From contig JBAZLC010000001.1 of the NCBI GenBank assembly GCA_041650415.1, positions 66,998-130,997 of the forward strand: a stretch of DNA of 64,000 nucleotides, given 5' to 3'. The position numbers and the translations under genes are program-made. Under the pieces are notes generated by a model. That model searched no databases. It saw only the letters and a program-made list of their open reading frames with translations, and was not told the origin of the DNA. Positions 6,665-22,424 of the stretch are shown here, piece after piece. The stretch's first letter is position 1. Every line of letters begins with the position of its first letter. The DNA comes from Minisyncoccota bacterium. GTDB lineage: Bacteria; Patescibacteriota; Minisyncoccia; UBA6257; UBA9933.

Positions 6665-6665
6665 T

Positions 6666-7850: not shown

Positions 7851-7904
7851 TTAAAATAAAAGAGACCCCAAGAGCAAAAGGGGTCTCCGGCTCTAAAAAG
7901 AGCC
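7851..7904 (-). terminator. Tandem hairpin terminator downstream of the E1-beta gene.
   Basis: gagacccc...ggggtctc plus ggctct aaaa agagcc, followed by a T-run on the minus strand. Confidence 0.55.
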
Positions 7905-8921
7905 CTCGAACAAATTATTTGAAGGTGTTTTTTTTGACGGCGTTTCGCACTCCAGACCAGCCAGTCTTAACGCGCTCGACACAATCTCTTCACTGCCCGG
8001 ATAGTAATCGTTTTCCAAAACCGGACTTGTGGGAGTTTGATGCTCGGGCAAATTAATCCTGACAATATTAGCCCTAAGGCTACTTGCAATGTTTTCCGAG
8101 ACAATCGCCGCCACTTCCGCGCTTATACTGCAATTCTTCCAGCCCGTATCGGCGACTATCAATCTTCCCGTTTTTTTGACAGATTGACAAACTGTTTCCG
8201 CATCGATGGGCCTCAAAGAGCAAAGGTCTATCACCTCGGCCTCTACACCTTTTCCCGAAAGAATCTCCGCCGCCAACAAAGCTTCTTTAACCATGAAAGA
8301 GAAAGAAACTATGGTGACGTCTTTTCCTCCACGCGCCAAAACCGCTTTATTCAGATCGAGCCGATAGATTTCTTCAGGGACAAAACATTTTTCCCCATAA
8401 AGCCCTCTGTGCTCGATAAAGATGACCGGATCTTCGCCTTTTATGGCGGAAATCAGGCAACCCTTGGCCTGATACGCGTTTGACGGCATCACAACCCTAA
8501 GACCGGGAATGTGAGCGAAAAGAGATTGAGGCGACTGGGAATGTTGAGCTCCCTGTCCCCTGCCGCGACCGATAACAGAACGTATAACAACCGGCGTTGA
8601 TTTACCATACAGATATTTCCACTGCGCAAGATGATTGACTATCTGACTCATCGATACCAGCATGAAATCGGCCCTGGCATGGACTAAAACCGGCCTTTTG
8701 CCGTTTAGAGCCGATCCCAGACAAATCCCCGTAAGCGCCTCTTCTGAAAGCGGTACGTCGAACACGCGTTCTTTCCCAAATAGCGAAACTAGTTCCGCTG
8801 TGCTTCCGAAAATCCCATTGGGATAATCGACGCCGAGCCCGATGACAAAAACCGAAGAATCCTCTTCCATTGTTTGTGTCAACGCCTCATTCAAAGCCTG
8901 CGAATACGTCAACTCTCTCAT
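7893..8921 (-). CDS. TPP-dependent 2-oxoacid dehydrogenase E1 component, beta subunit (transketolase-like Pyr and C-terminal domains).
   Basis: MRELTYSQALNEAL...VFVIGLGVDYPNGIFGSTAELV...FDVPLSEEALTGICLGSALNGKRPV is typical of E1-beta. GGGAGGAAAAA lies immediately upstream of the ATG at 8921, directly after the alpha-subunit stop. Confidence 0.8.
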   Translation of the reverse strand: MRELTYSQALNEALTQTMEEDSSVFVIGLGVDYPNGIFGSTAELVSLFGKERVFDVPLSEEALTGICLGSALNGKRPVLVHARADFMLVSMSQIVNHLAQWKYLYGKSTPVVIRSVIGRGRGQGAQHSQSPQSLFAHIPGLRVVMPSNAYQAKGCLISAIKGEDPVIFIEHRGLYGEKCFVPEEIYRLDLNKAVLARGGKDVTIVSFSFMVKEALLAAEILSGKGVEAEVIDLCSLRPIDAETVCQSVKKTGRLIVADTGWKNCSISAEVAAIVSENIASSLRANIVRINLPEHQTPTSPVLENDYYPGSEEIVSSALRLAGLECETPSKKTPSNNLFEGSF

Positions 8922-8931
8922 TTTTTCCTCC

Positions 8932-9834
8932 CTAAACCGTTTCCGCGAAAGAACTTTCCTTTGCGAAATAAAAAGCGTTTTCCAGTTCATCTTTGATCGA
9001 TGACTCCAAAACAGCCAATTCAGTTTCGGAAAACAGTTTTTCCGCTAAAAGAAAATTTCTGTATTTTTTAACGGGACAATTTTCAATATCGATCTTATAA
9101 TTCGGACCGACATGATCTGCCCACCTGTTAACCGCGCACTCCACCAAAAAAGGGCCGTTCCCGCGCAAAATATTTTCTTTCGCTCCGGAAAAAGCATTAA
9201 AAACCGCCAAGACGTCTCTTCCGTCAACTTTGCGATTTTTAATAGCGAAGGCTTCGCCTTTTTTGTGGATATTGCCGAACGATTCACGAATGTTGCTTGC
9301 CGAATTCGTAGCAAGGCCGTTGTTTTCACAAACAAAAACCACGGGCAGTTTATGAATCGAAGCGAAGTTGAGGCTTTCATAAAAAACCCCTTCTTCAACG
9401 GCCCCGTCGCCGAAGAACACGACTACAATTCTGCGCGAACCGTCAAGTTTCGCGGCAAAAGCGTCGCCAACGGCAATAGGAATCGTCCCACCGACAATTG
9501 CCGACGTGCCGAAGAAACCGGCCGATTCATCTATTATGTGCATTGAACCGCCTCTGCCTCCGGTGCAACCTACCGCTTTGCCATAAAGCTCCGCAAGCAA
9601 TCGTTTCAAATTTCCTCCACATGCAAGATACGCGGCATGTCCGCGATGCGTGGCGTAAACGTGATCGCCGGCATTCAAACCGGCGCAAACACCGACCGCC
9701 GACGCCTCCTGGCCCAAAGAAAGATGGACCGGACAACGCATTTCCTGTTCGGGATAACGCCTGGCAATCTCTTTTTCCGTTTCCCTGATGAGAACGAGCT
9801 TTTTGAACATTTCCAAAAGAATATTTTCCTTCAC
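8932..9834 (-). CDS. TPP-dependent 2-oxoacid dehydrogenase E1 component, alpha subunit.
   Basis: Thiamine-PP binding region GDGAVEEGVFYESLNFASIHKLPVVFVCENNGLA and the GGRGGSMH motif. GAAGGAGG sits upstream of the GTG at 9834. Confidence 0.8.
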   Translation of the reverse strand: MKENILLEMFKKLVLIRETEKEIARRYPEQEMRCPVHLSLGQEASAVGVCAGLNAGDHVYATHRGHAAYLACGGNLKRLLAELYGKAVGCTGGRGGSMHIIDESAGFFGTSAIVGGTIPIAVGDAFAAKLDGSRRIVVVFFGDGAVEEGVFYESLNFASIHKLPVVFVCENNGLATNSASNIRESFGNIHKKGEAFAIKNRKVDGRDVLAVFNAFSGAKENILRGNGPFLVECAVNRWADHVGPNYKIDIENCPVKKYRNFLLAEKLFSETELAVLESSIKDELENAFYFAKESSFAETV

Positions 9835-9900
9835 GGCAAACACCTCCTTCTAAGATTATTTTTTTGTGTTATGTACTTTTTAGCTTTTACCATAAATTTT

Positions 9901-9938
9901 AAATAAAGTAAAGGGCCGATATATCTCAATCGACCCTT
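9901..9938 (-). terminator. Terminator downstream of the 285-aa radical-SAM gene.
   Basis: Stem agggccgat / atcgaccct (one mismatch) followed by a T-rich run on the minus strand. Confidence 0.45.
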
Positions 9939-9942
9939 AAAA

Positions 9943-10791
9943 CTACTTTATCTCAACCGAGGAATGACCGTATTGTTGAAAACGATCGGTCTTTATTTTG
10001 ACATCGCAAGGATTGCAATGACCAAACCAATCGCACCGCCGAAATTCGTCTTTAATCTGGAACTGCGGATCAAGGATATTCCCTATGGAATTTCTCCGAC
10101 AATAGATATCTGCCGTACATCTGAACACGTCGCCGTTCGGACCGATTATAAGCTCCGTAGTCTTACACAAAACCGTTTTCCTCTTTTCTTTTTTTATCGC
10201 TTCGGGATAACGATATTCGCCGTAGACCTTGCCGTCGTATTCTCCTAAAAATTCTTTTGTGCGGAAATCAATGCCCACTTTCCGGCAAAACCTCTGAGCG
10301 CGCTTTATTTCCGATTTCTGTTCGGGATGCATTACGCCCCATATGCCGATGCTGAATCCCGCATTCTGAAGACACAAAACCTTCTTCATCAAAGAATCTA
10401 AATCCATTTGTTCAGGGTGATAGCTGACGCGGATAGAAGCGTATGGAGCCTCTCTTCTCAATCTTTGAGGGTTGATGTTATCCAAGAAAACCTTTTCATC
10501 GCGAAGATTCGTCAAAACATCAATTGATAATTCTGTTTTGATATTTTTAACGATATCCGCGAAACCTTTGTGAAGCGTCGGCTCTCCTCCTTGAAAAGTT
10601 ATCGGCAAATCAGGCTTTGAAATTATCCTGTTTAAACCGACAGCCCACTCGCTGGCCGACAGATGGTTCCATTTGGAACATTTTGGCTGCAATTCAAAGT
10701 TGTTGATACAAAAACTACAACTTAAATTGCATCTGAAGGTTAAAAAAACGGCGATATAGTTGTAGCTTTCCGGCATCAACAACGATTTCAT
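9943..10791 (-). CDS. Small radical SAM enzyme with a C-terminal auxiliary Cys cluster. Its size and twitch-like architecture resemble BtrN-type dehydrogenases.
   Basis: FRCNLSCSFCIN is a CxxxCxxC motif. C-terminal cysteines (CTADIYC...CDWFGHCNPC). AAAGGAGA lies 9 nt upstream of the ATG at 10791. Confidence 0.75.
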   Translation of the reverse strand: MKSLLMPESYNYIAVFLTFRCNLSCSFCINNFELQPKCSKWNHLSASEWAVGLNRIISKPDLPITFQGGEPTLHKGFADIVKNIKTELSIDVLTNLRDEKVFLDNINPQRLRREAPYASIRVSYHPEQMDLDSLMKKVLCLQNAGFSIGIWGVMHPEQKSEIKRAQRFCRKVGIDFRTKEFLGEYDGKVYGEYRYPEAIKKEKRKTVLCKTTELIIGPNGDVFRCTADIYCRRNSIGNILDPQFQIKDEFRRCDWFGHCNPCDVKIKTDRFQQYGHSSVEIK

Positions 10792-10898
10792 ACAAGTCAC
10801 TCTCCTTTCATTATTAAATTCTAAAAGATCCCATTTACTATTCCTGTTTTTAATAAGGCAAGATTACAATAAATCTCGAAAAAAGTAAAGACTTTATA

Positions 10899-10927
10899 TT
10901 GACAAAATTTAGTAAATATGATAATAT
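10899..10927 (+). promoter_or_regulatory. Sigma70-like promoter for the 411-aa radical-SAM gene.
   Basis: TTGACA, a 17-nt spacer, then TAATAT. GGAGG is 9 nt before the ATG at 10975. Confidence 0.45.
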
Positions 10928-10974
10928 CCCGATAGGTCTTAAAAAACTTCATAAAAAGGAAGGAGGTGATTTTA

Positions 10975-12201
10975 ATGCAAAATGCGAACGTCAAGTTTGA
11001 ATCCAAACACGATTTCACTGCAAAACTGCGCCAACCGTCTTTACTGCCAAATCTGAAAAACTATTTAGACTGGCAGCGATTAGTGCGGGGAGCAAACGCA
11101 AACGGAGGCAAACTGCCGGAAGTACCGGACTGGTTAATGCCCGTATCCATTAACTTGGATCTTACAACGGGCTGCAATTACCGTTGCGTCCACTGCATAG
11201 ACGCAGATATTCTAAACGGAACCAGCCACAACCATGAGACGCTTATGGCATCTCTGGAGAATATGATTAATTGCGGATTGCGTTCCGTAATTATCATCGG
11301 CGGCGGCGAGCCAACGCTTTACGCCAAATTCGAAAATGTCGTGCGCTTTCTTAAAGAACGTGGCGTTCAAGTCGCGATAGTAAGCAACGGTTCACGCAAT
11401 AACGTGATTTTGAACGTTATCGACTGCCTCGACGAGAAAGATTGGGTGCGCTTTTCACTGGACGCCGGAACAAACAACACATTCACAAAAATGCATAGAC
11501 CGAGAAAGATTATCACATTAGATGAAATCTGTTCTTGGGCTCCACGCATCCGCAACCGCAACCCGAAAGTGCCGCTGGGCTTTTCATTCCTGATAACGTG
11601 GGAAGGAAGCAAAAACAGCAATGGCACGAACATCATCCCCAACATCGGCGAAATCGTTGAAGCAACCAGATTGGCCTACGAACACGAATTCAATTACATT
11701 TCTTTTAAGCCGTTCCTGGTCCGCCAAAACGATGCAGAAGTCATGAACCCGGAAACGATGCTGGAGTTTGAACGCACAGTCGCGAACATCAAGTCCGCGA
11801 TTGATGAGGCAAAAAGTTTTGAAAAGGACGGCTTCAAGGTCATCGAAAGCACGAACTTGAAAGTTCTTGAACAAAACACCTGGCGCAATTTTACCTGCCA
11901 GCCAAAAACCTGCCACATACAAGCGTTCAGGCAAGTATTCACGCCGATAGGACTATTCAACTGTCCGGGATACCGCGGGATAGAAAAAGCGCGGATAAAC
12001 GGCGCCAACGCGTACAAAAATCAGGAAGAAATGCAAAAAGCCAGAAACAAAACCGCATATCTTCTGAACAACTTTAACGCGAACTCGGAGTGCGCTAACG
12101 TCACTTGCCTCTTCAATCAGGCTAACCACTGGATAGAAGAGAATATTGGCAACGGCCACAACCTCAAACCTTCCATAGAATCACACGATTACTACTTCTA
12201 A
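10975..12201 (+). CDS. Radical SAM enzyme (411 aa).
   Basis: TGCNYRCVHCID is a CxxxCxxC motif followed by a Gly-rich GGGEPTL SAM-binding motif. Late cysteines (CQPKTCH...CPGY...CANVTC). Confidence 0.8.
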   Translation: MQNANVKFESKHDFTAKLRQPSLLPNLKNYLDWQRLVRGANANGGKLPEVPDWLMPVSINLDLTTGCNYRCVHCIDADILNGTSHNHETLMASLENMINCGLRSVIIIGGGEPTLYAKFENVVRFLKERGVQVAIVSNGSRNNVILNVIDCLDEKDWVRFSLDAGTNNTFTKMHRPRKIITLDEICSWAPRIRNRNPKVPLGFSFLITWEGSKNSNGTNIIPNIGEIVEATRLAYEHEFNYISFKPFLVRQNDAEVMNPETMLEFERTVANIKSAIDEAKSFEKDGFKVIESTNLKVLEQNTWRNFTCQPKTCHIQAFRQVFTPIGLFNCPGYRGIEKARINGANAYKNQEEMQKARNKTAYLLNNFNANSECANVTCLFNQANHWIEENIGNGHNLKPSIESHDYYF

Positions 12202-12202
12202 G

Positions 12203-12252
12203 ACCGCAGTAGGCAATATAGAAATATATTCGTCCTACTGCGGCATTTTTTT
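12203..12252 (+). terminator. Rho-independent terminator. It overlaps the stop codon of the convergent GT9 gene.
   Basis: Stem ccgcagtagg...cctactgcgg followed by TTTTTTT. Confidence 0.6.
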
Positions 12253-13464
12253 ACCGATTAAATTAAAAATTTCAAGACAAATTTCTTTTGGATCTACCAC
12301 ATTAATAGCAGTAACACATTTTTCAAATTTCGGCAGCTTCCTGTAATAATAACCGTCGCAACCAGGCACATTTCTGTTAATAAATACTTTAGAATTTTGG
12401 CCGTAAGGCAGCCAATTCCCGTTTAATTCCGCCGGAGAAAAAACCGCTAATACTTTTATTCCTTCCAAGGCCGCCATGTGCATTAAGCCGGTATTATTTG
12501 AAATCAATAAATTTAACTTTTTAATTATGAATTCCGTTTCCAATAATGAAGTTATTCCGCACAAATTTATAACCGCCACGCTTTTTACTTTAGTTTTTAT
12601 ATATTTGCCTTTTTCAACATCGCCATGCCCGCCAAAAATTACAATCTGGCAACCTTTATAATTTTTTAGAAGAAATTTGATAACTTCAACAAAATTATCC
12701 AACGACCACTGGTTATCTTCATAGCTCGCGCTGGGCATAATGCCAAAAATAAGTTTTGACTTTATTTTATATTTTTCAATGATTTTTAATGCAGATTCTT
12801 TTTTGTCGTTCGGGACCGGCAAATCGTAATTTATTCCTCCGCTAACCGGAATGCCGCAACGTTTCAACAAATTAATCAGCCTATCAACTTCATTATCAAA
12901 TTGGTAAATTTTTGATTGTTCGCTCGCCCATAATTTAATAGTGCTTAATTCGAAACCAACCGTTTTTTTAGCTCCGCATAATTTTAAAAAAATGAAATTC
13001 CTGAATAAATATTTCAACATTATTAATTGCTGGGGCAAATATATCAACAAATCAAACGATTCTGCCCGCATCCTTTGGGAAAAATTATAAGCGCTCTTTA
13101 AGCTGCTTACTTCATCGGCATAATAAACCCATAATTTATCCATAAACGTAGCGCTTTCCAATAGTTCTTTTGCTCCAGGCCGGCCGTAACCGCCGGGAGA
13201 CGTCAATAAAGTAATTTTAGAATAAGGATATGCCTTGCGTATTGCAATAAATGCCGGAATAGAACAAATTATGTCGCCGATATTTCCAATCCTATAAATG
13301 CAAATATTTTTCGGCGAAAGCGGAACTTTTTTAGGCCACAAAAGATTAGATATTAATTTCAGTAAAGAATTAACCGAATCGTAACAAAAACCGATAAAAT
13401 AAGCCCGCATTTTAACCGAAAACGGTTCTTTTTTACTATTATCAGTAAATACTCTCCCTGTCAT
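12235..13464 (-). CDS. Glycosyltransferase family 9 (heptosyltransferase-like).
   Basis: N-terminal IYRIGNIGDIICSIPAFIAIRKAYP and C-terminal ISNNTGLMHMAALEGIKVLAVFSP GT9 motifs. It starts 9 nt after the aminotransferase stop. Confidence 0.75.
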   Translation of the reverse strand: MTGRVFTDNSKKEPFSVKMRAYFIGFCYDSVNSLLKLISNLLWPKKVPLSPKNICIYRIGNIGDIICSIPAFIAIRKAYPYSKITLLTSPGGYGRPGAKELLESATFMDKLWVYYADEVSSLKSAYNFSQRMRAESFDLLIYLPQQLIMLKYLFRNFIFLKLCGAKKTVGFELSTIKLWASEQSKIYQFDNEVDRLINLLKRCGIPVSGGINYDLPVPNDKKESALKIIEKYKIKSKLIFGIMPSASYEDNQWSLDNFVEVIKFLLKNYKGCQIVIFGGHGDVEKGKYIKTKVKSVAVINLCGITSLLETEFIIKKLNLLISNNTGLMHMAALEGIKVLAVFSPAELNGNWLPYGQNSKVFINRNVPGCDGYYYRKLPKFEKCVTAINVVDPKEICLEIFNLIGKKMPQ

Positions 13465-13472
13465 TGTAAGGT

Positions 13473-14819
13473 TTAAAGAAAAGATTCTTGGACTTCTAAA
13501 ATTGATTCCGAGAAAATTTTAATAATTTCGTCTATTTCTTTTTTCGTCACATTGAAAGGCGGAGCGATCATCACCGCATCGCCGTTTACGCCGTCGACAA
13601 ACCCTATACAAAAATACAATATCAACCCTCTTCTTTGAGCCGCTTGCAAAATTTTTTCCACCAGATGCGCATTTCTAGGAAACGGCTTTTTTGTTTTTTT
13701 GTCTTTAACAAATTCCACCGCCATCATCAGTCCCTTTCCGCGAACATCGCCAACAATATCAAATTTTAACAGTGGCTTAAGTTTCGACAAAAGATATTCC
13801 CCATTTTTAGCGCATTCATTGATCAAATTGTATTTTTTGATATATTCCAAAACGATGCTCCCCACTCCGGTCGTAAATGAATTATTTGCATACGTAAATC
13901 CGTGAGAAAAATTTCCACTCCCGTTTTTTATTGTTTTATATATTTTATCATTGCAAAATACCGCCGCTAAAGGCACTATGCCTCCTGAAATTCCTTTAGC
14001 CGCCGTTAAAACATCGGGCTTAATATTAAAATGTTCGCAAGCAAACCATTTACCGGTTCTCCCAAAACCGGTCATAACCTCATCAATAATTAAAAGAATT
14101 CCGTATTTATCGCAAATTTTCCTAATAATTTGGAAATACCCTTTGGGAGGAACGACCGCCCCGGCCGAAGCGCCGACAATCGGTTCAATGATAAGAGCGG
14201 CAATCGTATCCGGATTATTCTTTTTTATTGTTTTTTCAAATTCATAAGCGCAATTAGCGTCGCACCCCCAATTTGTTTTTTTATGCGGGCAACGATAAGA
14301 AGAATATCCCAAGAAAGAAGGAAATTTCAATAAATATGGTTCTGCTATTTTTCGAAAAGCCTCTTTGCCGGTAACGGAAAGCGCTCCCACAGTGGAACCA
14401 TGATAGCTTGGCCAGGTATAAACGATTTTATATCTTTTTTTGTCACCCGCGTCGTAATGATATTGCCTTGCAAGCTTAATGGCAGTTTCAACGGCTTCCG
14501 AACCGCCTGACACGAAATAAACCCTGCTTATTCCTTTAGGTGTGATTTTACAAAGATTTTTAGCGTATTCCTCCATGCGCCTTGTCGTAAACTGCGAAGC
14601 ATGAATAAAACCGGTTTCCGATAATTCCCCAATTTTTTTGCTAAGTTCCTTAACCCCGTGACCGATATTAGCTACTATCGCCCCGCCAACGGCATCAATA
14701 TATTTATTGCCTTTATCGTCATATAAATAAATTCCCTTGCCGCGCACGATAGCCGGATAATCATAGTTCAGCCTTCTATGAAAAACGTTACTTTTTGAAA
14801 TATTAAATTTATGGTTCAT
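13473..14819 (-). CDS. Class III pyridoxal-phosphate-dependent aminotransferase.
   Basis: LIIDEVMTGFGRTGKWFACEHFNIKPDVLTAAKGISGG contains the PLP-binding Lys (AAKG) in a class-III context. The fold is HemL/BioA/GenB-like. Confidence 0.8.
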   Translation of the reverse strand: MNHKFNISKSNVFHRRLNYDYPAIVRGKGIYLYDDKGNKYIDAVGGAIVANIGHGVKELSKKIGELSETGFIHASQFTTRRMEEYAKNLCKITPKGISRVYFVSGGSEAVETAIKLARQYHYDAGDKKRYKIVYTWPSYHGSTVGALSVTGKEAFRKIAEPYLLKFPSFLGYSSYRCPHKKTNWGCDANCAYEFEKTIKKNNPDTIAALIIEPIVGASAGAVVPPKGYFQIIRKICDKYGILLIIDEVMTGFGRTGKWFACEHFNIKPDVLTAAKGISGGIVPLAAVFCNDKIYKTIKNGSGNFSHGFTYANNSFTTGVGSIVLEYIKKYNLINECAKNGEYLLSKLKPLLKFDIVGDVRGKGLMMAVEFVKDKKTKKPFPRNAHLVEKILQAAQRRGLILYFCIGFVDGVNGDAVMIAPPFNVTKKEIDEIIKIFSESILEVQESFL

Positions 14820-14926
14820 AATAAAAAATTTAGTTGATAATGGCTAAATTTATTTTTTTGCGCTCGCTACTATATTCTGTGAAAAAATTCCATTGCTCGA
14901 ACCGGTTTCAATCAATAAATAAATAT

Positions 14927-15571
14927 TTAAAATCGCATTTGTAATTTTTCCCAATACAAAACGATAAACGAGAAAGGTCCGTGCACTACCGGATAAGTGC
15001 CAAAAATTTCTACTTGTTTGAATTTTAAAATCGACAAAAGCTGATTCATGCTTTCTTTTGTAAAAAAAGTTTCATGTGATAAATCTCCAAATGCTATCCT
15101 GCCAAAAAACGGACTTTCAGCGTTTACGGTTTGAATAACTATTAACCCTCCATCTTTTAACGATTTATGAGCCAACTCTAAAATTTTCAAAATTTCTTCT
15201 TTCTTTAAATGCTCAATAAAATCGCGCATAAACAGTAAATCAAATTGTCCATTCTTGTCATTCAAAAACTCACCTGCATCTCCTTGAAATACATTATTTA
15301 TTCCTAATTTTTTAGCAACACTTATCTGCTCTTCGCTAACATCAATGCCAACGGCGTTTTTATATCCTAGTTGCTGAAGCCAATAAACAAATCCCCCATT
15401 GCCGCAACCGATATCGGCAATATTAGCCGATTTATCTTTAGAAATAAACTTCCCGAAATAACTTTGCCAAACAATAAATTGTTTTTTTAAATTATCCAAA
15501 TTTTGAGGACCGTAAAGATTAACGCTGTGCGTTGAAATGTATTTTGAATAAATTTTGTCGCGGTAATCCAT
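14927..15571 (-). CDS. Class I SAM-dependent methyltransferase.
   Basis: Motif I IADIGCGNGGFVYWL, then DVSEEQI and the LLFMRDFIEH motifs. Confidence 0.75.
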   Translation of the reverse strand: MDYRDKIYSKYISTHSVNLYGPQNLDNLKKQFIVWQSYFGKFISKDKSANIADIGCGNGGFVYWLQQLGYKNAVGIDVSEEQISVAKKLGINNVFQGDAGEFLNDKNGQFDLLFMRDFIEHLKKEEILKILELAHKSLKDGGLIVIQTVNAESPFFGRIAFGDLSHETFFTKESMNQLLSILKFKQVEIFGTYPVVHGPFSFIVLYWEKLQMRF

Positions 15572-15601: not shown

Positions 15602-16186
15602 CTAACCTTCTATTGCTTTTCTGACATTTGAGTCGTCGGGCCAATAATTTAAAATCTCTTCGCCTATCTTTTCCGTATTCTCTTTGTCTCCTTTTAAGCG
15701 ATATAAATCAAACAAATTATAAAGAACCGGCGGGAGATTCGGCCCAATAGTATAAGCTTTTTTAAAATATTCTTCTGATTTCTTATAATCTTCCTCGCTA
15801 CCCGAAAACCTCCAAAGAGTCTCATTAAAAACTCCGCCCATGATAAGATGACGGACATTATTATTGAAAAGATATTTATCTATATAATTTACCAAGAAAC
15901 GCGCCGTTGGTTCCTGAAAACCGGATTGAGTAATTACGCCCAAAATATCCGAAGAGAAAAATTTAACTACTTCTTCCTGACCTATTGGCGAATAAAAATT
16001 AAAAACTCCGCCAACCTGATTTTCAAATTGTTCTGCTGTATAAGTCCTACCTGATTGCATATCTGTTAGAGTATTAATATAAGCCTGTGCTTTTCCCCAC
16101 GGTAAAATTGCGCCTAAAACGATACCTATAATCGTAAGTATTATAAAAATAATAATAATAAACTGTTTTAATAAGATTTTATACAT
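15602..16186 (-). CDS. Membrane-anchored hypothetical protein with a TPR-like C-terminus.
   Basis: N-terminal transmembrane helix (IIIIFIILTIIGIVLGAIL). C-terminal helical-repeat-like sequence (YFKKAYTIGPNLPPVLYNLFDLYRLKGD). The start is uncertain. With the ATG at 16186 it would overlap the upstream gene's stop by 8 nt. Confidence 0.4.
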   Translation of the reverse strand: MYKILLKQFIIIIFIILTIIGIVLGAILPWGKAQAYINTLTDMQSGRTYTAEQFENQVGGVFNFYSPIGQEEVVKFFSSDILGVITQSGFQEPTARFLVNYIDKYLFNNNVRHLIMGGVFNETLWRFSGSEEDYKKSEEYFKKAYTIGPNLPPVLYNLFDLYRLKGDKENTEKIGEEILNYWPDDSNVRKAIEG

Positions 16187-17669
16187 CTTTATTTTTAAAA
16201 TTAGACTTATAAACGGCAAAAGCAAAAAGCAAGAAAAGATTCAAATAAATCGGTGAAACATCAAATAAAACTATACCCTGCACAAGATAAGCTACCGGTA
16301 TAGCAAACATTAAAGCTTTAATTAAAGTAATTTGTTGTTTTGTGTCTGCTTCAACTAATTTATTTTGATTTTTTTCATTTTTATCTATATCAACCAGCGG
16401 CTTTTTAAAAAGAAGATAATAAAATGCAATAAATATTCCCAAATAACTTAACAAACCCAAAATTCCGGTTTCCGCCAAATAATCAAGATAAATATTGTGC
16501 GCCCTATCAAACCAAGCGCCAAAACCAATATTGGGATTAAAATATTTAATATTAAAATGATGATCAAAAACTTGAAGAAAATTTTCCGGTCCCCATCCCA
16601 AAATCGGCCGTTCTTTAAATCCATCTATTGCCATCTTCCAAATAGTTACCCTATCTTGGAAGGTGTTCGCCGAAAGAGAAATGCTTAAAATACGTGAAAC
16701 GCCGGGAACTGATTTTATAACCGGAGTATCTTTAAATTGAACTAAGGTAAAAACTAAAACCACCATTACCGCACCAGCTAAAATAATCCATTTCCGCCAA
16801 CGTTTTGAAGAAAAAGCGAGACAGGCTAAAAAAGCCAACACTGAAGCGATAAGTCCGAGAAATGCTCCTCTTGTGCCTGCCATAAAAAAGACAATTAAAA
16901 GCGCTAATGCCGAAACCCATAAAGCTATTGCGCCATAAGAAAATAATTTATTTTTATATTTTGAAACCAAAAGATAACTTATGTAAAAAAGCGAAAAAAT
17001 AATATAGGCCGCCACATAAGAAGAATTTCCAATTGAACCTTCGAACCTGAATCCCGAATTGGAAAATGCCAAGCCAATAAACGGATGAAACATTTGGTAA
17101 TAAGGACCACCAGTACCACTAAGAATATCTTCTGTTCCTCCAGTTGGAGTATTACGAGTTGTAAAATCGGCATCAACATACTTTAAGCCCGCCGCGACGC
17201 CATAAAGGCTAATTCCAATAGCGCCGATAATCATCATAGTAAAAATTATCCGCCAATCTTTTTCTTTGTCAAAAAGAAGCGCCAAAAGCGCGAAAAAAAT
17301 ATAAAAACATAAAATTTGCAATCCCCCTTCTCCTCTTTCAAAGTTTGACCAAAAAGAATAACTCGGAGAAACCCCAAACAAACACGCCAATAAAAATATT
17401 GCCGCAAAAATCGAAACAGTAATAATTAAAGGGTTTTTTATTAATTGTTTTAAACGACTAATAATTTCATTTACGCCATTTTGATTGAGTAAAACTCCCA
17501 GTAAGAAAAAAATAAACGATAAACCGATTATAGTCCTAAAAAAAACGTATTTACCGACAATAAACGGGAAAAGGGTGGACGGCGTAACAATAATTACCAT
17601 CAATGGGACTAAATACAATAAATATTTAGAAATTTTGAAAGCGTTAAACATAAATATAATTTTATCCAT
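16179..17669 (-). CDS. O-antigen ligase / Wzy_C-family polytopic membrane protein. Candidate O-oligosaccharyltransferase or glycan polymerase.
   Basis: About 12 predicted transmembrane segments. The periplasmic-loop motif GWGPENF...FDRAHNIYLDYLAETGILG matches the Wzy_C signature (conserved H/R). Confidence 0.65.
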   Translation of the reverse strand: MDKIIFMFNAFKISKYLLYLVPLMVIIVTPSTLFPFIVGKYVFFRTIIGLSFIFFLLGVLLNQNGVNEIISRLKQLIKNPLIITVSIFAAIFLLACLFGVSPSYSFWSNFERGEGGLQILCFYIFFALLALLFDKEKDWRIIFTMMIIGAIGISLYGVAAGLKYVDADFTTRNTPTGGTEDILSGTGGPYYQMFHPFIGLAFSNSGFRFEGSIGNSSYVAAYIIFSLFYISYLLVSKYKNKLFSYGAIALWVSALALLIVFFMAGTRGAFLGLIASVLAFLACLAFSSKRWRKWIILAGAVMVVLVFTLVQFKDTPVIKSVPGVSRILSISLSANTFQDRVTIWKMAIDGFKERPILGWGPENFLQVFDHHFNIKYFNPNIGFGAWFDRAHNIYLDYLAETGILGLLSYLGIFIAFYYLLFKKPLVDIDKNEKNQNKLVEADTKQQITLIKALMFAIPVAYLVQGIVLFDVSPIYLNLFLLFAFAVYKSNFKNKDV

Positions 17670-17689: not shown

Positions 17690-17729
17690 GCGCACAAAAC
17701 AAAAGACCCCTTTCGGGGTCTTTTGCGCG
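17690..17729 (-). terminator. Terminator downstream of the surface-protein gene.
   Basis: aaaagacccc-TTTC-ggggtctttt hairpin with flanking runs. Confidence 0.6.
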
Positions 17730-17752: not shown

Positions 17753-20700
17753 TTAGGTCTTGGCTGTGACTGTCGACAAGGCAGGAATGCCATCCACCTT
17801 CAAATCTGTGATGGTGTCTGACAAATCGCCGTCGCCGTTACCGTCGTAACCAAGGTCTGCTTCATCAGCCTCGAACAAGATATTACCCAAGGCGCTAACT
17901 GAGAACTGATAGGTATCATTGTTAGCTGAAGCCGCAGAGTTCCTGATTGTCAGGTATCTCCAGCTGCCGCCGTCAATTTTCCTTTCAGTCGCAGTTAATG
18001 TTGAAGTAGCGAAGCTAATGCTTGACGCAGCACCTGTTGCGGTGGTTGACGCCAAATATCCACTGCCGCTATTCCAGCCCGATGTGTCGGATTGACCGCC
18101 TCCCATAGCTGAAGCATAAATCTTGAAGCTTGTGGTTGTGGTGGCCGAACCGCCATTGGTGAATGTCATTGTCGTGGTCGACAAAGAAATCGCGGCTGTA
18201 CCGTTGTTGGTAACTTTAAACACCGCAAGGTTTTGTCCCGCCGAAGTACCCACTTGAGTGGCTGTTGTCGGCGAAATCGCCTCAATCTTCACGTTCTGCG
18301 GAGTAATATAGCTCACGCCGGACGATGAAGCTGAACCGGTGATTGTACCGGCTGCAGCGCTAACCGCACCCTTTGAAACGATATGTGTCGTAGAAGCAAC
18401 ACTAAACTTGAAGTCATTTCCAAGAATAGACGAACCTCCAGCGGCAATATCCGCTTTCGCGTAAATTGTGACGCCAGTGGTCGGAACCGGAGCGGACAAC
18501 AAATTGTCCGAAGCGGTAAACGTTACTTCACATTGCGTACCCGTGCAGTTATCAAACTGCGGAGCTGAAGCAAACGGAGTCGTCGCAGATCCTTCGTAAA
18601 GTCTGATATTCGTTAATGTGGTTGTCGCCAAAGCGGTAGCCACCGAAGTCAATTTCAACGAAGTAATCTTTTGGGCTTCATATTGAGATGTCAATTTGAA
18701 AGCCAAGTAAACGCCGTTTGAAGTGCCAACGTTAACAATTTGATTAGACGAAGGCGAAGCTCCTGAACCGGAAACCAACGAGAATATCACCTTACCCGAT
18801 GAAACAATGGTCATCGCTTGTCCGCTACCGGCATAAGTGATGTCTGTTCCATGAGTTAATGAATTACCCGTAGTATAACCTGTCGCAGCAACTGCAGAAG
18901 ATGAAGACGCTACAACAAATCTTTGCGTCCCAGAACCATCGCCAGCAGTATCGGCTACAACGTTCGCCTTCAAATGAAGGGTTACCGGAGTAGCTTTCGG
19001 AACAACTATCGGAGTCGAGAAGCTGAATGTTACAGTCGCGGCATTGCTAGCCGTTGAAGCTGTTGTTGACAACGCAGTTGTTTCGTTGTCTTTAAACATT
19101 CTTAAGTTCGAAACGTCCGCAAGGGCTCCTGATGCACTGACGGTGCTGCTTACAGTAACCGAAGTTACTTTAACATCTTCTCCGCCTGATTGAGCATTAA
19201 GCTGAATCTGGGCGAATTCGTAATCGCTCGAACCTACAACAACCGAATTGGCAACCGGGGTTGAAAGTGTTGTTACAACAAGTTTGGCAGCTTGAACCGG
19301 AATGGTCAAACCGTCTACTGCTGCAACATTCAAACCTGTATCGCCATCGCTCAAAAGATCGTTTGAAGTGAGCCTCTTTGCAGAAGTCAAATCAAAGCTT
19401 GTGACTTTGTAGGTATCGCTGGCTGTCGCGCTTGAGCTGATTGAACCTTCAATCGAAATCGTGCTGTCTTGACCAGCGGTCAAAATCGGATACGAAGAAA
19501 GGTTAACAGTTGTCTGAGCGCCAACTCCAATTGAAGAAGCCGCAACGCTGTAAACAATCGAATTGTTTACTTTAACGTAAACCGTTCCGCTAAGAACGTG
19601 CGCGCTCGTAGCGTAAGTTGACGAAGTCGCGACATAGAACTTCACCTGGCGAAGCTCGTAATCTTCTCCTGTCGGCTTTACAGTGAATTTAGCAAGAACG
19701 ATATTATTCGCTCCTGGGACCACTGCTGAGCTCGGAGAATCTGTAGCTCTTTGTAAGGTAATGCCTCCTGAACCGATTGTAGTCATGTTCCAAGCATTAC
19801 CGATCGGGAAGCTTGTGTCGTTTCCTGTCCCTGTCGGGATTATGGAAACTCCAGTTGTCGCGCCACGAACATCCAAATCGTAATCGTTGTAGGTTACGAG
19901 TTTGATTGTTTTTGTGGTTCCGCCGGCAATCTTCGCTTTAATGGTGAAGTCTTTTGTAAGACCTTTATCAATAAAGTACGGAGTTGTCGGTTTAAATGTG
20001 ACGTACTGGCCGGACGGCTGGGCTGTTGCCACAACTGTTCCGGTATTGTCTTCCAAGGTTACATCTTTGTAATCAGCCGCGGCAGCATTGCCGTAGTTAT
20101 ACAATGTCCAACCATAAAGATACACTCCTTCCTTGCTGGAAGTTTCCGCAATGCGGTATTTAGTGATTTCTTGCAAGCTGGCCGGATCAACATTCAATGT
20201 TGAAGAACCGGTTGATGTAAGAATGCTCAAAGTAACGGTGCCCAATGAAGAGCTACCATCAACAATGTTCATTGTCGCGCCAGTCAACGGGAATGAACCC
20301 GAGAATGTCGCGTTTGCGGCAATAGCGCTCGCCGAAGCGATGCTAAAGTTCAAGGTTCCGCTGTAAGCGCCAGCGAGAAGATTGAAGCGGACTGTTGCCG
20401 TTTCGCTCTTTCCAGCTTTTACCACAATCGGATCTTGCGTCATGAAGATCGTAATGGTGTTATCGGCATTAACCGAAGTTGACACCTGACCATGACGAAC
20501 TCCCGCAGAGTCAATGACGTCTACGCCGTTCAAATTGGTGTTAGCCACGAAACCACTCTTTTGGAAAGTGATTGACGTAATGCTGACATCTGTTGAACCG
20601 GCGGTGAACACAACTTTCAAACCTGCGTTGAAAGCTGTTCCGCTACCAAGAGTTTTGGCTGCCGGACTATCCGAAGCAACCGCAACCGACAAAGCAGCTC

Positions 20701-21190
20701 CAACCGGGGTTGTTGTAGTACCTCCACCAGTTGTTGTACCTCCTGTCGCAGCAACCGACGCCACGTAGGCGCGAGTTTTAGGTCCGAAATATCCGACGGC
20801 CGGAGAAATTCCGACAGCGGCTTGATATTTCGCCAAAGCTTTTACGGTCAATGAACCATAATATGTGGTTTCATTTCCCGCTGAACCTGCTCCAGTTGAA
20901 GCGACTGCATAACCCTTAGCGTTCAAAAATTGCTGTAAGGCTTTGACATCGTCTCCTTTAGAACCCAAGGTGAGGTCTCGGGTAAAATTATAGGAAGCGG
21001 TTGTCGTAGTCTGAGCGCCGGACAATTGCGATTGCAATGCCGAAATTTGAGCCAAAAGCGACGCGATTTGCGCCTGCAGATCATCAACGGTCGCGGCTGA
21101 AGCCGGCAAAACCATAGCTGATCCAGAAAGTGTTATCGCCGTAGCCATTGAAAGGGCAACGGACGTAATCTTTCTAAATGATTTGCTCAT
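17753..21190 (-). CDS. Giant (1145 aa) secreted surface protein. It has a signal peptide, a peptidoglycan-binding domain and long Thr/Ser/Gly/Ala-rich Ig-like beta-sandwich repeats, and is likely an S-layer or cell-wall-anchored protein.
   Basis: Signal peptide MSKSFRKITSVALSMATAITLSGSAMVLPASA|ATV, then coiled-coil-like LQAQIASLLAQISALQSQL. PG_binding_1-like LTLGSKGDDVKALQQFLNAKGYAV...YGSLTVKALAKYQAAVGI. TTGGGTTTTP linker. About 900 aa of low-complexity S/T/A/G/V beta-strand repeats. No LPXTG motif. Confidence 0.8.
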   Translation of the reverse strand: MSKSFRKITSVALSMATAITLSGSAMVLPASAATVDDLQAQIASLLAQISALQSQLSGAQTTTTASYNFTRDLTLGSKGDDVKALQQFLNAKGYAVASTGAGSAGNETTYYGSLTVKALAKYQAAVGISPAVGYFGPKTRAYVASVAATGGTTTGGGTTTTPVGAALSVAVASDSPAAKTLGSGTAFNAGLKVVFTAGSTDVSITSITFQKSGFVANTNLNGVDVIDSAGVRHGQVSTSVNADNTITIFMTQDPIVVKAGKSETATVRFNLLAGAYSGTLNFSIASASAIAANATFSGSFPLTGATMNIVDGSSSLGTVTLSILTSTGSSTLNVDPASLQEITKYRIAETSSKEGVYLYGWTLYNYGNAAAADYKDVTLEDNTGTVVATAQPSGQYVTFKPTTPYFIDKGLTKDFTIKAKIAGGTTKTIKLVTYNDYDLDVRGATTGVSIIPTGTGNDTSFPIGNAWNMTTIGSGGITLQRATDSPSSAVVPGANNIVLAKFTVKPTGEDYELRQVKFYVATSSTYATSAHVLSGTVYVKVNNSIVYSVAASSIGVGAQTTVNLSSYPILTAGQDSTISIEGSISSSATASDTYKVTSFDLTSAKRLTSNDLLSDGDTGLNVAAVDGLTIPVQAAKLVVTTLSTPVANSVVVGSSDYEFAQIQLNAQSGGEDVKVTSVTVSSTVSASGALADVSNLRMFKDNETTALSTTASTASNAATVTFSFSTPIVVPKATPVTLHLKANVVADTAGDGSGTQRFVVASSSSAVAATGYTTGNSLTHGTDITYAGSGQAMTIVSSGKVIFSLVSGSGASPSSNQIVNVGTSNGVYLAFKLTSQYEAQKITSLKLTSVATALATTTLTNIRLYEGSATTPFASAPQFDNCTGTQCEVTFTASDNLLSAPVPTTGVTIYAKADIAAGGSSILGNDFKFSVASTTHIVSKGAVSAAAGTITGSASSSGVSYITPQNVKIEAISPTTATQVGTSAGQNLAVFKVTNNGTAAISLSTTTMTFTNGGSATTTTSFKIYASAMGGGQSDTSGWNSGSGYLASTTATGAASSISFATSTLTATERKIDGGSWRYLTIRNSAASANNDTYQFSVSALGNILFEADEADLGYDGNGDGDLSDTITDLKVDGIPALSTVTAKT

Positions 21191-21674: not shown

Positions 21675-22424
21675 TTACAGCGACCAACTGGAAGCGCCGA
21701 AAATCGCCAGAGCCAAAGCTATAAAAACCGTTATATTTCTTAGAACCAATCGCCTGTTTATGGAGCCGTTTATGTGCCCCAAAATGAAATCTTGGAAAAT
21801 TAAAATAATTAATAAAGTTAGCGCTCCGGCGTTTAAAAAATTTATCGGTAAAAAACTCAACGCCCAGACAATCTGGAAAACCAAAAATGAAACCGACCAG
21901 GCGAATAAATTATTTTTTTGCGCGCCGGGAATTTCATTTGAAATATCCAAAAATTCTTTAAAAAGATACAGAAACGCGGAAAACGCCGCCAGATATTTTA
22001 CGAAAAATAAAATACCCGATCTGTCCGACCAAAAAAATAAAGAGAAAATCGCCAATACCAAAACGCCGTTCAAAAAATGGTAAATCGGCCGGCGATTTAT
22101 GAAAATCAGGTTTTTCAGGCCCAGAAGAACGAAGAAAATCGCCGTATAAGCCAGCGAAACCGCCAAAAACCAGCCAGAGTCAAGAAACTCCCGTAAAAAG
22201 GCCGGGAAAAGCAAAATAACCAGGAATGAAGCCAAGAATTGGCGCGAATTAACCCCGGGAAAGAAGTAAAAATAGCACCCAGCCAACACGAAAGCGGCTA
22301 TATAAAACCATTCGCCCGTTGCCAGGGCAAAAAACAGCAAGATTCCCAAGCCAACGCTTTTAAGCGCTAACGGCAATATCGAGCCCCTTAGATTCCAAAA
22401 AGCCGATTTTAATTTTTTTAGCAT
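21675..22424 (-). CDS. Polytopic integral membrane protein, hypothetical.
   Basis: At least 6 hydrophobic helices. AAGGGGAGA is 9 nt upstream of the ATG at 22424. It overlaps the clpB 3' end by 65 nt. Confidence 0.5.

What the first reader, a model, noticed from the sequence alone, without database searches (positions are those of the whole stretch)
16179..17669. Wzy_C / O-antigen-ligase-family membrane protein immediately upstream of the surface protein: candidate O-oligosaccharyltransferase
PglL- and PilO-type protein O-oligosaccharyltransferases belong to the same Wzy_C family as WaaL. This 496-aa protein has the conserved periplasmic loop (GWGPENF...FDRAHNIYLDYLAETGILG). It sits between the sugar-biosynthesis genes and the S/T-rich surface protein gene, and is co-directional with both. 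This genomic position is expected for an enzyme that transfers a lipid-linked glycan en bloc onto the neighbouring protein, rather than for an LPS ligase.
Basis: inference. Interest (0 to 1): 0.6.

Follow-up and report, generated by a model that had tools for sequence, protein, structure and literature searches.

The report
Candidate surface-protein glycan transferase, CPR bacterium
This is a real O-antigen-ligase-family membrane enzyme from an ultra-small Patescibacteria (CPR) bacterium that is almost always paired or fused with a small TPR protein, usually follows the gene for the cell's large wall-anchored surface protein, and precedes a strain-variable sugar-synthesis island, so it most likely attaches ready-made glycans to that surface protein, as known S-layer glycosylation enzymes of Gram-positive bacteria do.

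Summary
The ORF at 16179-17669 lies on the minus strand. It is a clear Wzy_C protein with 12 predicted TM helices and an external catalytic loop, and the Arg/Arg/His of WaaL and PglL is essentially invariant.

It lies downstream, not upstream, of the surface-protein gene, and a conserved terminator hairpin separates the two.

A 194-aa membrane-anchored TPR protein overlaps its stop codon by 8 nt. This protein is adjacent or fused in 71 of 74 related genomes.

A homologue of the surface protein lies within 5 kb upstream in 37 of 51 loci. A glycan island of variable gene content followed the pair in all four contexts that had Pfam-labelled gene calls.

This layout mirrors the Gram-positive S-layer O-oligosaccharyltransferases WsaB plus WsaA (split) and WsfB (fused).

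Sequence and fold match WaaL and a PglL-type structure about equally, and there is no PglL_A domain, so the acceptor remains inferred.

Verdict: a plausible S-layer-type O-oligosaccharyltransferase (about 0.5). A glycolipid ligase and a polymerase are the rivals. It is a new member of a known kind, of moderate interest.

The parts
16179..17669 (-). Wzy_C / O-antigen-ligase-family membrane enzyme. It is 496 aa from the first ATG; the alternative start at 17651 gives the 490-aa public call. Predicted catalytic residues are R267, R340 and H391 in 496-aa numbering (R261, R334, H385 in 490-aa numbering).
   Evidence: Pfam Wzy_C E 1.4e-25. PDB WaaL 7tpg E 1.5e-8. Foldseek gives only WaaL as significant, E 4.2e-7, TM 0.53/0.63. 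AF2 model pLDDT 83, pTM 0.87, about 12 long helices. Hydropathy and K+R counts fit N-in/C-in with the catalytic loops outside. R/R/H are conserved in 80-81 of 81 orthologues and 13 of 13 paralogues.
15602..16186 (-). 194-aa partner protein: an N-terminal TM anchor, a conserved about 85-aa domain (LPxxKA, FYSPIGQEE, VRHL) and two C-terminal TPR motifs. Its ATG overlaps the Wzy_C stop codon (ATGTATAA).
   Evidence: Gene call and junction sequence. It is adjacent or fused to the Wzy_C gene in 71 of 74 loci, and fused into one ORF in 7 loci. The fused protein P0066, residues 506-665, aligns to residues 24-185 at E 1e-31. Homologues carry Pfam TPR_19, TPR_2 or TPR_14. Family profile positions 115-189 match consensus TPR structures at E 1e-34 to 2e-20.
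17753..21190 (-). Putative acceptor: a 1145-aa secreted surface protein. It has a signal peptide, a coiled coil, a PG_binding_1 domain, a disordered Thr/Gly linker (residues about 147-163), then an array of all-beta Ig-like domains. Composition is 27% Ser+Thr, pI 5.1, 2 Cys.
   Evidence: Pfam PG_binding_1 E 2.7e-8. Composition. AF2 pLDDT 83 with secondary structure. Foldseek gives only generic Ig-like arrays. 417 hits; the 120 listed are 771-1450 aa, mostly about 1100-1240, and those carrying a source name are Patescibacteria-group or unclassified bacterial MAGs. A homologue lies within 5 kb upstream of Wzy_C in 37 of 51 loci.
17693..17726 (-). Intrinsic-terminator-like hairpin (12-bp stem, GAAA loop, U-rich tail) between the surface-protein stop and the Wzy_C start. 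Only about 24-40 nt remain before the Wzy_C start codons.
   Evidence: Sequence. Fold of 63 nt: -29 kcal/mol, z -6.3, 0 of 200 shuffles as stable. An equivalent hairpin of -20 to -31 kcal/mol is present in all 22 intergenic regions tested, 21 related loci plus the window's own contig, although the sequences differ.
790..15571 (.). Glycan-biosynthesis island downstream of the pair; it continues beyond the window start. It contains a methyltransferase, a class-III aminotransferase, two GT9, GT4, NUDIX, five radical-SAM proteins and E1 dehydrogenase alpha/beta. Beyond the window it has a further methyltransferase, GT2, a Glyco_trans_1_2-family glycosyltransferase, a second GT4, an AsnB-like protein, RmlC and an epimerase.
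   Evidence: Pfam and gene calls. Low G+C, 0.35-0.36 at 12-18 kb against about 0.44 elsewhere. Most of its genes have no homologue downstream of the pair in other loci: 0-2 loci each for nine of ten island genes, with 45 loci having at least 8 kb of downstream sequence, while different glycan genes take their place.
21675..22424 (-). Conserved syntenic neighbour: a 249-aa hydrophobic (predicted membrane) protein of unknown function between clpB and the surface-protein gene. It is listed as context, with no assigned role.
   Evidence: Homologue found in 25 of the 80 related loci, always between ClpB and the surface protein. No Pfam family above cut-off.

Best explanation
The gene encodes the catalytic subunit of a two-part, extracytoplasmic en-bloc glycan transferase that is conserved across Paceibacteria-type Patescibacteria. 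The proposed mechanism is as follows. A glycan is assembled on undecaprenyl-pyrophosphate by the variable downstream island and is flipped outward. The Wzy_C protein binds the pyrophosphate with R267 and R340. It uses H391 at the membrane-outside boundary to activate an acceptor hydroxyl, then transfers the whole glycan. The membrane-anchored TPR partner is translationally coupled in this genome and fused in others. It sits on the same outer face and is proposed to present the acceptor. The most likely acceptor is Ser/Thr of the peptidoglycan-anchored, S/T-rich, Ig-like-domain surface protein encoded just upstream. This would be an S-layer-type O-oligosaccharyltransferase analogous to WsaB+WsaA / WsfB. 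Shown here: family, fold, conserved catalytic residues, topology, pairing and fusion with the TPR protein, recurrent synteny, and variability of the island. Inferred: the lipid-linked donor, the role of the TPR partner, and above all the identity of the acceptor.
For: Family and chemistry: Wzy_C at 90 bits. WaaL is the only significant fold match. R/R/H align to CmWaaL R191/R265/H313. They also align to R224/R298/H349 of the PglL-numbered oligosaccharyltransferase 9rmk_A, together with P313/G316/G318 (residue names from PMC3643930). These residues are invariant in 81 orthologues and 13 paralogues.

Not a polymerase: the listed homologues are 48-83% identical, mostly about 50%, across several named candidate lineages, while the adjacent glycan genes differ completely between genomes. 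This is the pattern of ligases and OTases, not of repeat-unit-specific Wzy.

TPR partner: adjacent or fused in 71 of 74 loci, with true TPR motifs. The review PMC2943079 states that the S-layer O-OTases WsfB and PglL carry a C-terminal TPR motif, and that WsaB lacks one but has the 168-aa TPR protein WsaA encoded next to it.

Link to the surface protein: a homologue lies within 5 kb upstream on the same strand in 37 of 51 loci. In 11 loci a second Wzy_C-TPR paralogue sits directly after the surface gene. That paralogue occurs only with the divergent surface-protein type, 11 of 19 against 0 of 19, Fisher p 1.3e-4, although ClpB divergence is the same in both groups. Wzy_C identity tracks surface-protein identity (rho 0.41, p 0.011). 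Precedent: 21 of 31 pglL genes lie beside their pilin target.

No LPS acceptor is expected: a curated Parcubacteria genome lacks lipid A/LPS genes, and a glycosylated S-layer was already suspected there (PMC5220378).
Against: No experiment and no glycoproteomic data exist. The Pfam PglL_A domain (PF15864) and Wzy_C_2 gave no hit. NCBIfam gave only a sub-threshold IctB match. WaaL scores slightly better than the O-OTase structure. In 14 of 51 loci the pair has no surface-protein gene upstream, yet the one such locus examined with Pfam labels (L088) still abuts a glycan island. The synteny block also contains clpB, which is functionally unrelated, so conserved order alone is weak evidence. A terminator separates the surface gene from Wzy_C. 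No Wzx flippase, ABC exporter or initiating phosphoglycosyltransferase was recognised within +-10 kb in four contexts. The surface protein is not shown to be an S-layer protein, because the fold search gave only generic Ig-like matches. The co-variation statistics are not corrected for phylogeny.
Confidence: 0.5

Rival explanations
1. Glycolipid or cell-wall ligase, TacL- or WaaL-like. The pair transfers the island-encoded polymer from Und-PP onto a membrane glycolipid or another non-protein anchor, producing a lipoglycan or lipoteichoic-acid-like molecule. Adjacency to the surface-protein gene would then reflect only a shared 'envelope' neighbourhood.
For: The best sequence and fold matches are to WaaL. 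A monoderm precedent exists: pneumococcal TacL is a Wzy_C protein that ligates teichoic acid chains to a glycolipid (PMC5727136). The tightest association is with the TPR partner and, in every context examined, with a glycan island rather than the surface protein (14 of 51 loci lack the surface protein upstream). clpB is equally syntenic. No PglL_A domain was found.
Against: The Wzy_C lipid ligases considered here (WaaL, and TacL at 397 aa) are not described with TPR modules (and my own knowledge). By contrast, three O-OTase systems are described with them. The surface gene is adjacent in 73% of loci, and an extra paralogue co-varies with surface-protein type. No glycolipid-anchor synthesis genes were noted in the contexts read.
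Confidence: 0.25
2. Wzy-type polymerase. The protein polymerises Und-PP-linked repeat units of a surface polysaccharide, and the TPR protein acts as a scaffold or chain-length partner.
For: Wzy_C is also found in polymerases. No other polymerase candidate was recognised in the island. TPR proteins act as scaffolds in some exopolysaccharide systems (own knowledge).
Against: The protein stays about 50% identical, with dozens of invariant loop residues, across lineages whose adjacent glycan genes are unrelated. Polymerases normally co-vary with the repeat unit and sit inside the variable region (established knowledge of O-antigen loci). No NCBIfam polymerase model matched. No Wzx or Wzz was seen.
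Confidence: 0.1
3. General O-oligosaccharyltransferase. The pair glycosylates many secreted proteins (pilins, other wall proteins), as Neisseria PglL does. The neighbouring surface protein would be only one abundant substrate, or not a preferred one.
For: The enzyme is conserved in loci without the surface gene. The Wzy_C search returned more hits (2074, in a capped search) than the surface-protein search (417). General systems are well documented (PMC3643930).
Against: No pilin gene appears in the 64-kb window or in the neighbourhoods read. The recurrent placement of one to three Wzy_C genes directly after the surface gene argues for a privileged relation.
Confidence: 0.1

Closest known systems
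WsaB + WsaA (Geobacillus stearothermophilus) and WsfB (Paenibacillus alvei): predicted S-layer O-oligosaccharyltransferases of Gram-positive bacteria
   Same: A Wzy_C membrane enzyme with a TPR module that is either a separate small adjacent protein (WsaA, 168 aa, against 194 aa here) or fused at the C-terminus (WsfB, against the 647-687-aa fused forms here). The cluster contents are similar to those listed for slg clusters: rml genes, glycosyltransferases, a methyltransferase, an asparagine-synthase homologue and the S-layer structural gene (PMC2943079).
   Different: Different phylum (Patescibacteria). The TPR gene is downstream rather than upstream. The putative acceptor is a PG_binding_1-anchored Ig-like array, not an SLH-type S-layer protein. 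No ABC exporter or initiating transferase was seen in the cluster. Direct sequence similarity to WsaB/WsfB could not be tested because no sequences were available in the tools.
PglL / PilO (TfpO) / PglS O-oligosaccharyltransferases of Gram-negative bacteria
   Same: Wzy_C core. R224/R298/H349, P313, G316 and G318 of the PglL-numbered structure 9rmk_A align to R261/R334/H385, P349, G352 and G354 here. PglL Q178 aligns to the invariant N209. These genes often lie beside the target protein gene.
   Different: No PglL_A (PF15864) or Wzy_C_2 match. PglL N180 is not conserved here (it aligns to A211). The neighbour is not a pilin. The organism is presumed monoderm.
WaaL O-antigen ligase (Cupriavidus metallidurans, PDB 7TPG/7TPJ)
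   Same: Best sequence and fold match: E 1.5e-8 by sequence; Foldseek E 4.2e-7, TM 0.53/0.63. Same 12-TM plan, and R191/R265/H313 are conserved.
   Different: About 18% identity. The protein is about 80-90 residues longer, with family-specific invariant motifs (LFPFIVGKY, SNFERGEGG, GSIGN). It has a TPR partner. It is not in an LPS core cluster, and CPR genomes are reported to lack lipid A synthesis.
TacL lipoteichoic acid ligase (Streptococcus pneumoniae)
   Same: A Wzy_C-family enzyme in a bacterium without LPS that transfers an Und-PP-linked polymer to a final acceptor (PMC5727136).
   Different: TacL is 397 aa, has no reported TPR partner, and its acceptor is a glycolipid.

Membership tests
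Wzy_C / O-antigen ligase superfamily (PF04932) | Match to the family HMM above the curated cut-off | tested here: met
   90.2 bits against a cut-off of 31.7, E 1.4e-25, full-length model match 2-149.
Wzy_C / O-antigen ligase superfamily (PF04932) | Polytopic (about 12 TM) membrane protein with a large external loop carrying the conserved Arg, Arg and His | tested here: met
   AF2 helices and hydropathy with K+R distribution. R261/R334/H385 align to CmWaaL R191/R265/H313 and are invariant in the family.
PglL-type O-oligosaccharyltransferase | PglL_A domain (PF15864), which separates PglL from WaaL (PMC3643930) | tested here: not met
   No PF15864 or Wzy_C_2 hit at E <= 0.01 in the Pfam scan.
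PglL-type O-oligosaccharyltransferase | PglL-specific conserved residues Q178, N180, G316, G318, H400, E404 and P406 | tested here: inconclusive
   The alignment to 9rmk_A gives N209 at Q178, A211 at N180, and G352/G354 at G316/G318. CmWaaL also has Gly at the last two positions. The H400-P406 region was not aligned.
PglL-type O-oligosaccharyltransferase | Demonstrated transfer of a lipid-linked glycan to Ser/Thr of a protein | not testable with these tools
   Requires expression in a glyco-competent host or glycoproteomics.
Gram-positive S-layer O-OTase (WsaB/WsfB type) | Wzy_C enzyme with an associated TPR module (fused, or a small adjacent protein) | tested here: met
   A 194-aa TM+TPR protein with an 8-nt overlap. 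Adjacent or fused in 71 of 74 loci. The feature is described in PMC2943079.
Gram-positive S-layer O-OTase (WsaB/WsfB type) | Location in or next to a glycan gene cluster (rml genes, GTs, methyltransferase) and the surface-layer structural gene | tested here: met
   Window and contig context. The same layout occurs in L086 and L087. The surface gene is within 5 kb in 37 of 51 loci. That the neighbour forms an S-layer is not shown.
Gram-positive S-layer O-OTase (WsaB/WsfB type) | Sequence relationship to WsaB/WsfB closer than to WaaL, Wzy or TacL | not tested
   No WsaB, WsfB, TacL or Wzy reference sequences could be retrieved with the tools.
WaaL LPS O-antigen ligase | Lipid A-core acceptor present, and the gene located in an LPS core locus | tested here: not met
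   No Pfam family typical of lipid A or core synthesis appears in the gene lists for the 64-kb window. Parcubacteria are reported to lack lipid A/LPS genes (PMC5220378). The rest of this genome was not examined.
Wzy O-antigen / capsule polymerase | Sequence co-varies with the repeat-unit gene cluster and lies within the variable region alongside Wzx (and Wzz) | tested here: not met
   The protein is conserved at about 50% identity while the adjacent islands share almost no genes. No Wzx or Wzz families appear in the contexts.
SEDS (RodA/FtsW) | Match to FTSW_RODA_SPOVE or structural similarity to RodA/FtsW | tested here: not met
   No such Pfam hit. Neither the PDB profile search nor the top Foldseek hits returned any SEDS protein.

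The most novel reading that the evidence does not exclude
A conserved, two-component (Wzy_C + membrane-anchored TPR) O-oligosaccharyltransferase decorates the peptidoglycan-anchored major surface protein of Paceibacteria-type CPR bacteria with strain-variable glycans. Extra Wzy_C-TPR paralogues would be dedicated to alternative surface-protein types. This would be the first defined envelope-glycosylation pathway in the Candidate Phyla Radiation and a molecular handle on their host-contact surface.
Probability: 0.45. Interest if true: 0.6.

Novelty: new member of a known kind. Interest (0 to 1): 0.45.

Why it matters
The envelope of CPR/Patescibacteria is poorly understood. One genome paper states that its formation and structure 'remain unclear' for all CPR studied. 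These cells live attached to hosts, so their outermost glycoprotein layer is probably the interaction surface. Public records label this gene 'O-antigen ligase family protein', which misleads for organisms reported to lack LPS. A conserved surface-protein gene followed by a Wzy_C/TPR pair and a variable glycan island gives a concrete, testable model: a strain-variable glycan coat on a conserved scaffold, analogous to O-antigen or S-layer glycan diversity. It also offers a compact enzyme pair that could be tried in glycoengineering. My literature searches found no paper linking Wzy_C enzymes to CPR surface proteins.

Tried and rejected
- **Failed contig look-ups.** Two look-ups failed because the ORF starts differed from the public gene calls.
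- **Alignment timeout.** MAFFT --auto timed out and was rerun in a faster mode.
- **TPR domain versus paralogue C-terminus.** A profile comparison of the 194-aa family with the C-terminal TPR region of an 851-aa paralogue was weak (probability 6.9%). I do not claim that the two TPR modules are orthologous, only that both are TPR.
- **GT9 as protein heptosyltransferase.** I considered whether the island's GT9 enzymes are TibC/AAH-type heptosyltransferases that could glycosylate the surface protein in the cytoplasm. PDB searches hit only LPS-type GT9 structures (3tov, 1psw), so there is no support.
- **Export and initiation genes.** I looked for flippase, exporter or initiating-transferase genes among unlabelled neighbours. 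Pfam at E <= 1 found none.
- **Surface-protein fold.** The fold search gave only generic Ig-like arrays, so 'S-layer protein' remains an inference.
- **Sigma-70 promoter scan.** It was at chance level, 14 sites against 12.6 expected, and was not used.
- **Literature.** Searches for CPR combined with O-antigen ligase or S-layer glycosylation found nothing specific. No paper describing PDB 9rmk was found.
Full report
**What is at the coordinates.** The ORF 16179-17669 is on the minus strand. It encodes 496 aa from the first ATG; the public gene call starts at Met7 and gives 490 aa. Pfam Wzy_C matches at E 1.4e-25, 90.2 bits against a curated cut-off of 31.7. NCBIfam gives only a far sub-threshold match to the Wzy_C-related IctB model. 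An identical protein is on record as 'O-antigen ligase family protein [Candidatus Paceibacterota bacterium]'. The 120 best of more than 2000 hits are 48-83% identical. Those with names come from Paceibacterota, Brenner-, Jorgensen- and Nomurabacteria, which are Patescibacteria/CPR.

**Gene order.** On the minus strand the order is clpB, a 249-aa membrane protein, the 1145-aa surface protein, the Wzy_C gene, a 194-aa ORF, then a methyltransferase, a class-III aminotransferase, GT9 and further genes. The Wzy_C gene is therefore downstream of the surface-protein gene, not upstream.

**Anatomy of the enzyme.**
- An AlphaFold2 model built on 34 homologues has pLDDT 83 and pTM 0.87, with about twelve long helices.
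- Hydropathy and the Lys/Arg distribution fit an N-in/C-in topology. The loops carrying SNFERGEGG, TRGAF, R334, GWGPENF and WFDRAH lie outside.
- By Foldseek the only significant solved structure is the WaaL ligase 7TPG (E 4.2e-7, TM 0.53/0.63). The next hit has E 0.04.
- The HMMER alignment places R267/R340/H391 (496-aa numbering) on CmWaaL R191/R265/H313.
- A family profile also finds PDB 9rmk_A, a 610-aa 'oligosaccharyltransferase'. Its numbering reproduces the residues published for Neisseria PglL: Q178, N180, R224, R298, P313, G316, G318 and H349. The same Arg/Arg/His, Pro and Gly-x-Gly align, and PglL Q178 aligns with the invariant N209.
- WaaL scores 35.1 bits and the O-OTase 31.6 bits. 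Sequence therefore confirms the chemistry but does not choose between a lipid and a protein acceptor.
- The three catalytic residues are conserved in 80-81 of 81 orthologues and 13 of 13 paralogues from species-level genomes.
- No PglL_A, Wzy_C_2 or SEDS family matched.

**The missed partner.** The next ORF (15602-16186) starts with an ATG that overlaps the Wzy_C stop codon (ATGTATAA), which suggests translational coupling. It has one N-terminal TM helix, a conserved domain of about 85 residues, and a C-terminus that matches consensus TPR structures (E 1e-34 to 2e-20). It also matches the TPRs of O-GlcNAc transferase weakly. Several homologues carry Pfam TPR families and are named TPR proteins.

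I fetched 80 species-representative loci encoding a relative of the Wzy_C protein and compared their ORFs with the window's proteins. The TPR protein is directly downstream or fused in 71 of the 74 loci that have enough downstream sequence. In seven loci the two form a single ORF of 647-687 aa. The fused protein P0066 aligns over residues 506-665 to the 194-aa protein at E 1e-31. Because the Wzy_C C-terminus is cytoplasmic, the extra TM helix puts the TPR domain outside, on the side of the catalytic loop (inference).

**Relation to the surface protein.**
- The upstream gene encodes a signal peptide, a coiled coil, a PG_binding_1 domain, a disordered Thr/Gly-rich linker and then an array of Ig-like beta domains.
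- It has 27% Ser+Thr against 11% background, pI 5.1 and two Cys.
- Its family has 417 hits. The 120 listed are 771-1450 aa, mostly about 1100-1240. Those carrying a source name are Patescibacteria-group or unclassified bacterial MAGs, annotated only as peptidoglycan-binding.
- Fold search returns only generic Ig-like arrays, so an S-layer role is an inference. It is consistent with reports of S-layers on Parcubacteria cells and of predicted S-layer proteins in Patescibacteria.
- A homologue lies within 5 kb upstream on the same strand in 37 of the 51 loci with enough upstream sequence, and directly adjacent in 19.
- In 11 loci the intervening gene is a second Wzy_C paralogue fused to canonical TPRs, 742-923 aa. 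One locus has three Wzy_C genes in a row.
- Surface-protein identity to the window's copy is bimodal: at least 48% in 19 loci and at most 39% in 19 loci. The extra paralogue occurs only with the divergent type, 11 of 19 against 0 of 19, Fisher p 1.3e-4. ClpB identity is the same in both groups. Wzy_C identity correlates with surface-protein identity (rho 0.41, p 0.011) but not significantly with ClpB identity.
- These statistics are not phylogenetically corrected.
- Against a dedicated link, clpB is part of the same syntenic block. In addition, 14 of 51 loci have unrelated genes upstream.

**Transcription.** A 12-bp GC-rich hairpin with a U-rich tail follows the surface-protein stop codon (17726-17699). 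The 63-nt region folds at -29 kcal/mol, z -6.3. An equivalent hairpin of -20 to -31 kcal/mol, with a different sequence, is present in all 22 intergenic regions tested: 21 related loci plus the window's own contig. It usually leaves 12-66 nt before the Wzy_C start. I infer that the surface gene is an abundantly expressed unit, and that the enzyme genes are expressed at a lower level by read-through or from a promoter inside the end of the surface gene. This is not shown.

**The glycan island.** Downstream of the pair, this genome carries a low-G+C region (0.35-0.36). It contains a methyltransferase, a class-III aminotransferase, two GT9, GT4, five radical-SAM proteins and E1 dehydrogenase alpha/beta. 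Beyond the window it has a further methyltransferase, GT2, a Glyco_trans_1_2-family glycosyltransferase, a second GT4, an asparagine-synthase-like gene, RmlC and an epimerase.

In three other genomes the pair is also followed by glycan genes, but different ones: NTP-transferase, hexose dehydratase, DegT, GLF, UbiA, GT10 and Methyltransf_21. Nine of ten of the window's island genes have a homologue in only 0-2 of the related loci, of which 45 have at least 8 kb of downstream sequence. A constant enzyme next to a variable glycan locus is the pattern of ligases and oligosaccharyltransferases with relaxed glycan specificity. It is not the pattern of repeat-unit-specific Wzy polymerases (established knowledge of O-antigen loci).

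No flippase, ABC exporter or initiating phosphoglycosyltransferase was recognised in these contexts. This is a gap in the model.

**Comparison with what is known.** The closest described systems are the S-layer O-glycosylation loci of Gram-positive bacteria. According to PMC2943079:
- the predicted O-OTases WsaB and WsfB contain Wzy_C;
- WsfB (and PglL) carry a C-terminal TPR motif;
- WsaB lacks one but has the 168-aa TPR protein WsaA encoded next to it;
- the clusters contain rml genes, glycosyltransferases, a methyltransferase and an asparagine-synthase homologue, and their maps include the S-layer protein precursor gene (sgsE, spaA).

The split and fused Wzy_C/TPR forms and the cluster content found here reproduce that picture in a different phylum.

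PglL-type enzymes share the catalytic core and the habit of lying beside their target gene, 21 of 31 cases. The PglL_A domain that defines them is absent here.

WaaL is the best structural match, but a curated Parcubacteria genome lacks lipid A/LPS genes.

TacL shows that a Wzy_C enzyme in a monoderm can instead serve a glycolipid acceptor. This is the main rival.

**Verdict.** I put about 0.75 on 'terminal en-bloc glycan transferase working with a TPR partner'. I put about 0.5 on the acceptor being the neighbouring surface protein (an S-layer-type O-OTase), 0.25 on a non-protein acceptor, and 0.1 each on a polymerase or a general O-OTase. It is a new member of a known kind. The gene is already annotated at family level and the mechanism has Gram-positive precedents. 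The conserved pairing, the fusions, the link to a CPR surface protein and the paralogue co-variation did not turn up in my literature searches.

Noticed in passing
window 790-12201 (and beyond the window start; L085 11966-21179): The 'sugar' island is unusual. It holds five radical-SAM genes (two with SPASM domains, one B12-binding), a TPP-dependent E1 dehydrogenase alpha/beta pair, a class-III (not DegT-type) aminotransferase, NUDIX and two GT9 'heptosyltransferases', in an organism presumed to lack LPS. This could make a heavily modified sugar, or the SPASM enzymes could instead mature a peptide. Almost none of these genes recur next to the Wzy_C pair in other genomes.
   Followed up: partly
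window 21675-22424 (-): A 249-aa hydrophobic (predicted membrane) protein with no family assignment overlaps the end of clpB by 65 nt. A homologue sits between clpB and the surface-protein gene in 25 of the 80 related loci. Its constant position just before the surface gene is unexplained.
   Followed up: no
window 12000-18000: G+C drops to 0.35-0.36 across the Wzy_C gene, the TPR gene and the first island genes. The neighbouring surface-protein gene has 0.47 and most of the rest of the window 0.40-0.47. This resembles the low-G+C signature of exchangeable glycan loci.
   Followed up: no
related loci L007, L012, L029, L037, L045, L052, L056, L064, L070, L074, L075 (gene between the surface protein and Wzy_C), and L020 5289-9911: A second Wzy_C paralogue of 742-923 aa, fused to canonical TPR repeats, is inserted directly after the surface-protein gene, and only where that gene is of the divergent (about 30% identity) type. 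L020 has three Wzy_C genes in tandem. The surface protein appears to exist in at least two types that do not follow ClpB relatedness.
   Followed up: partly
window 21373-21396 (-) and 17699-17726 (-): The surface-protein gene is bracketed by terminator-like hairpins, one upstream after the 249-aa gene and one downstream. It also has a 485-nt upstream intergenic region. This fits a strongly expressed monocistronic gene.
   Followed up: partly
L086 9542-9940 (-); proteins P0037 and P0079: A small PDDEXK_3 / 'GxxExxY' gene is inserted between the surface-protein gene and the Wzy_C gene in a Jorgensenbacteria genome. In two database entries it appears fused to the N-terminus of the Wzy_C protein. 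This is possibly a mobile insertion or a gene-calling artefact.
   Followed up: no
PDB 9rmk_A (external): A solved 610-aa 'oligosaccharyltransferase' has residue numbering that matches published Neisseria PglL residues. It is detectable with the family profile (E 6.5e-7) but was absent from the Foldseek PDB results, and no paper for it was found. A structural superposition with this family would be informative.
   Followed up: partly
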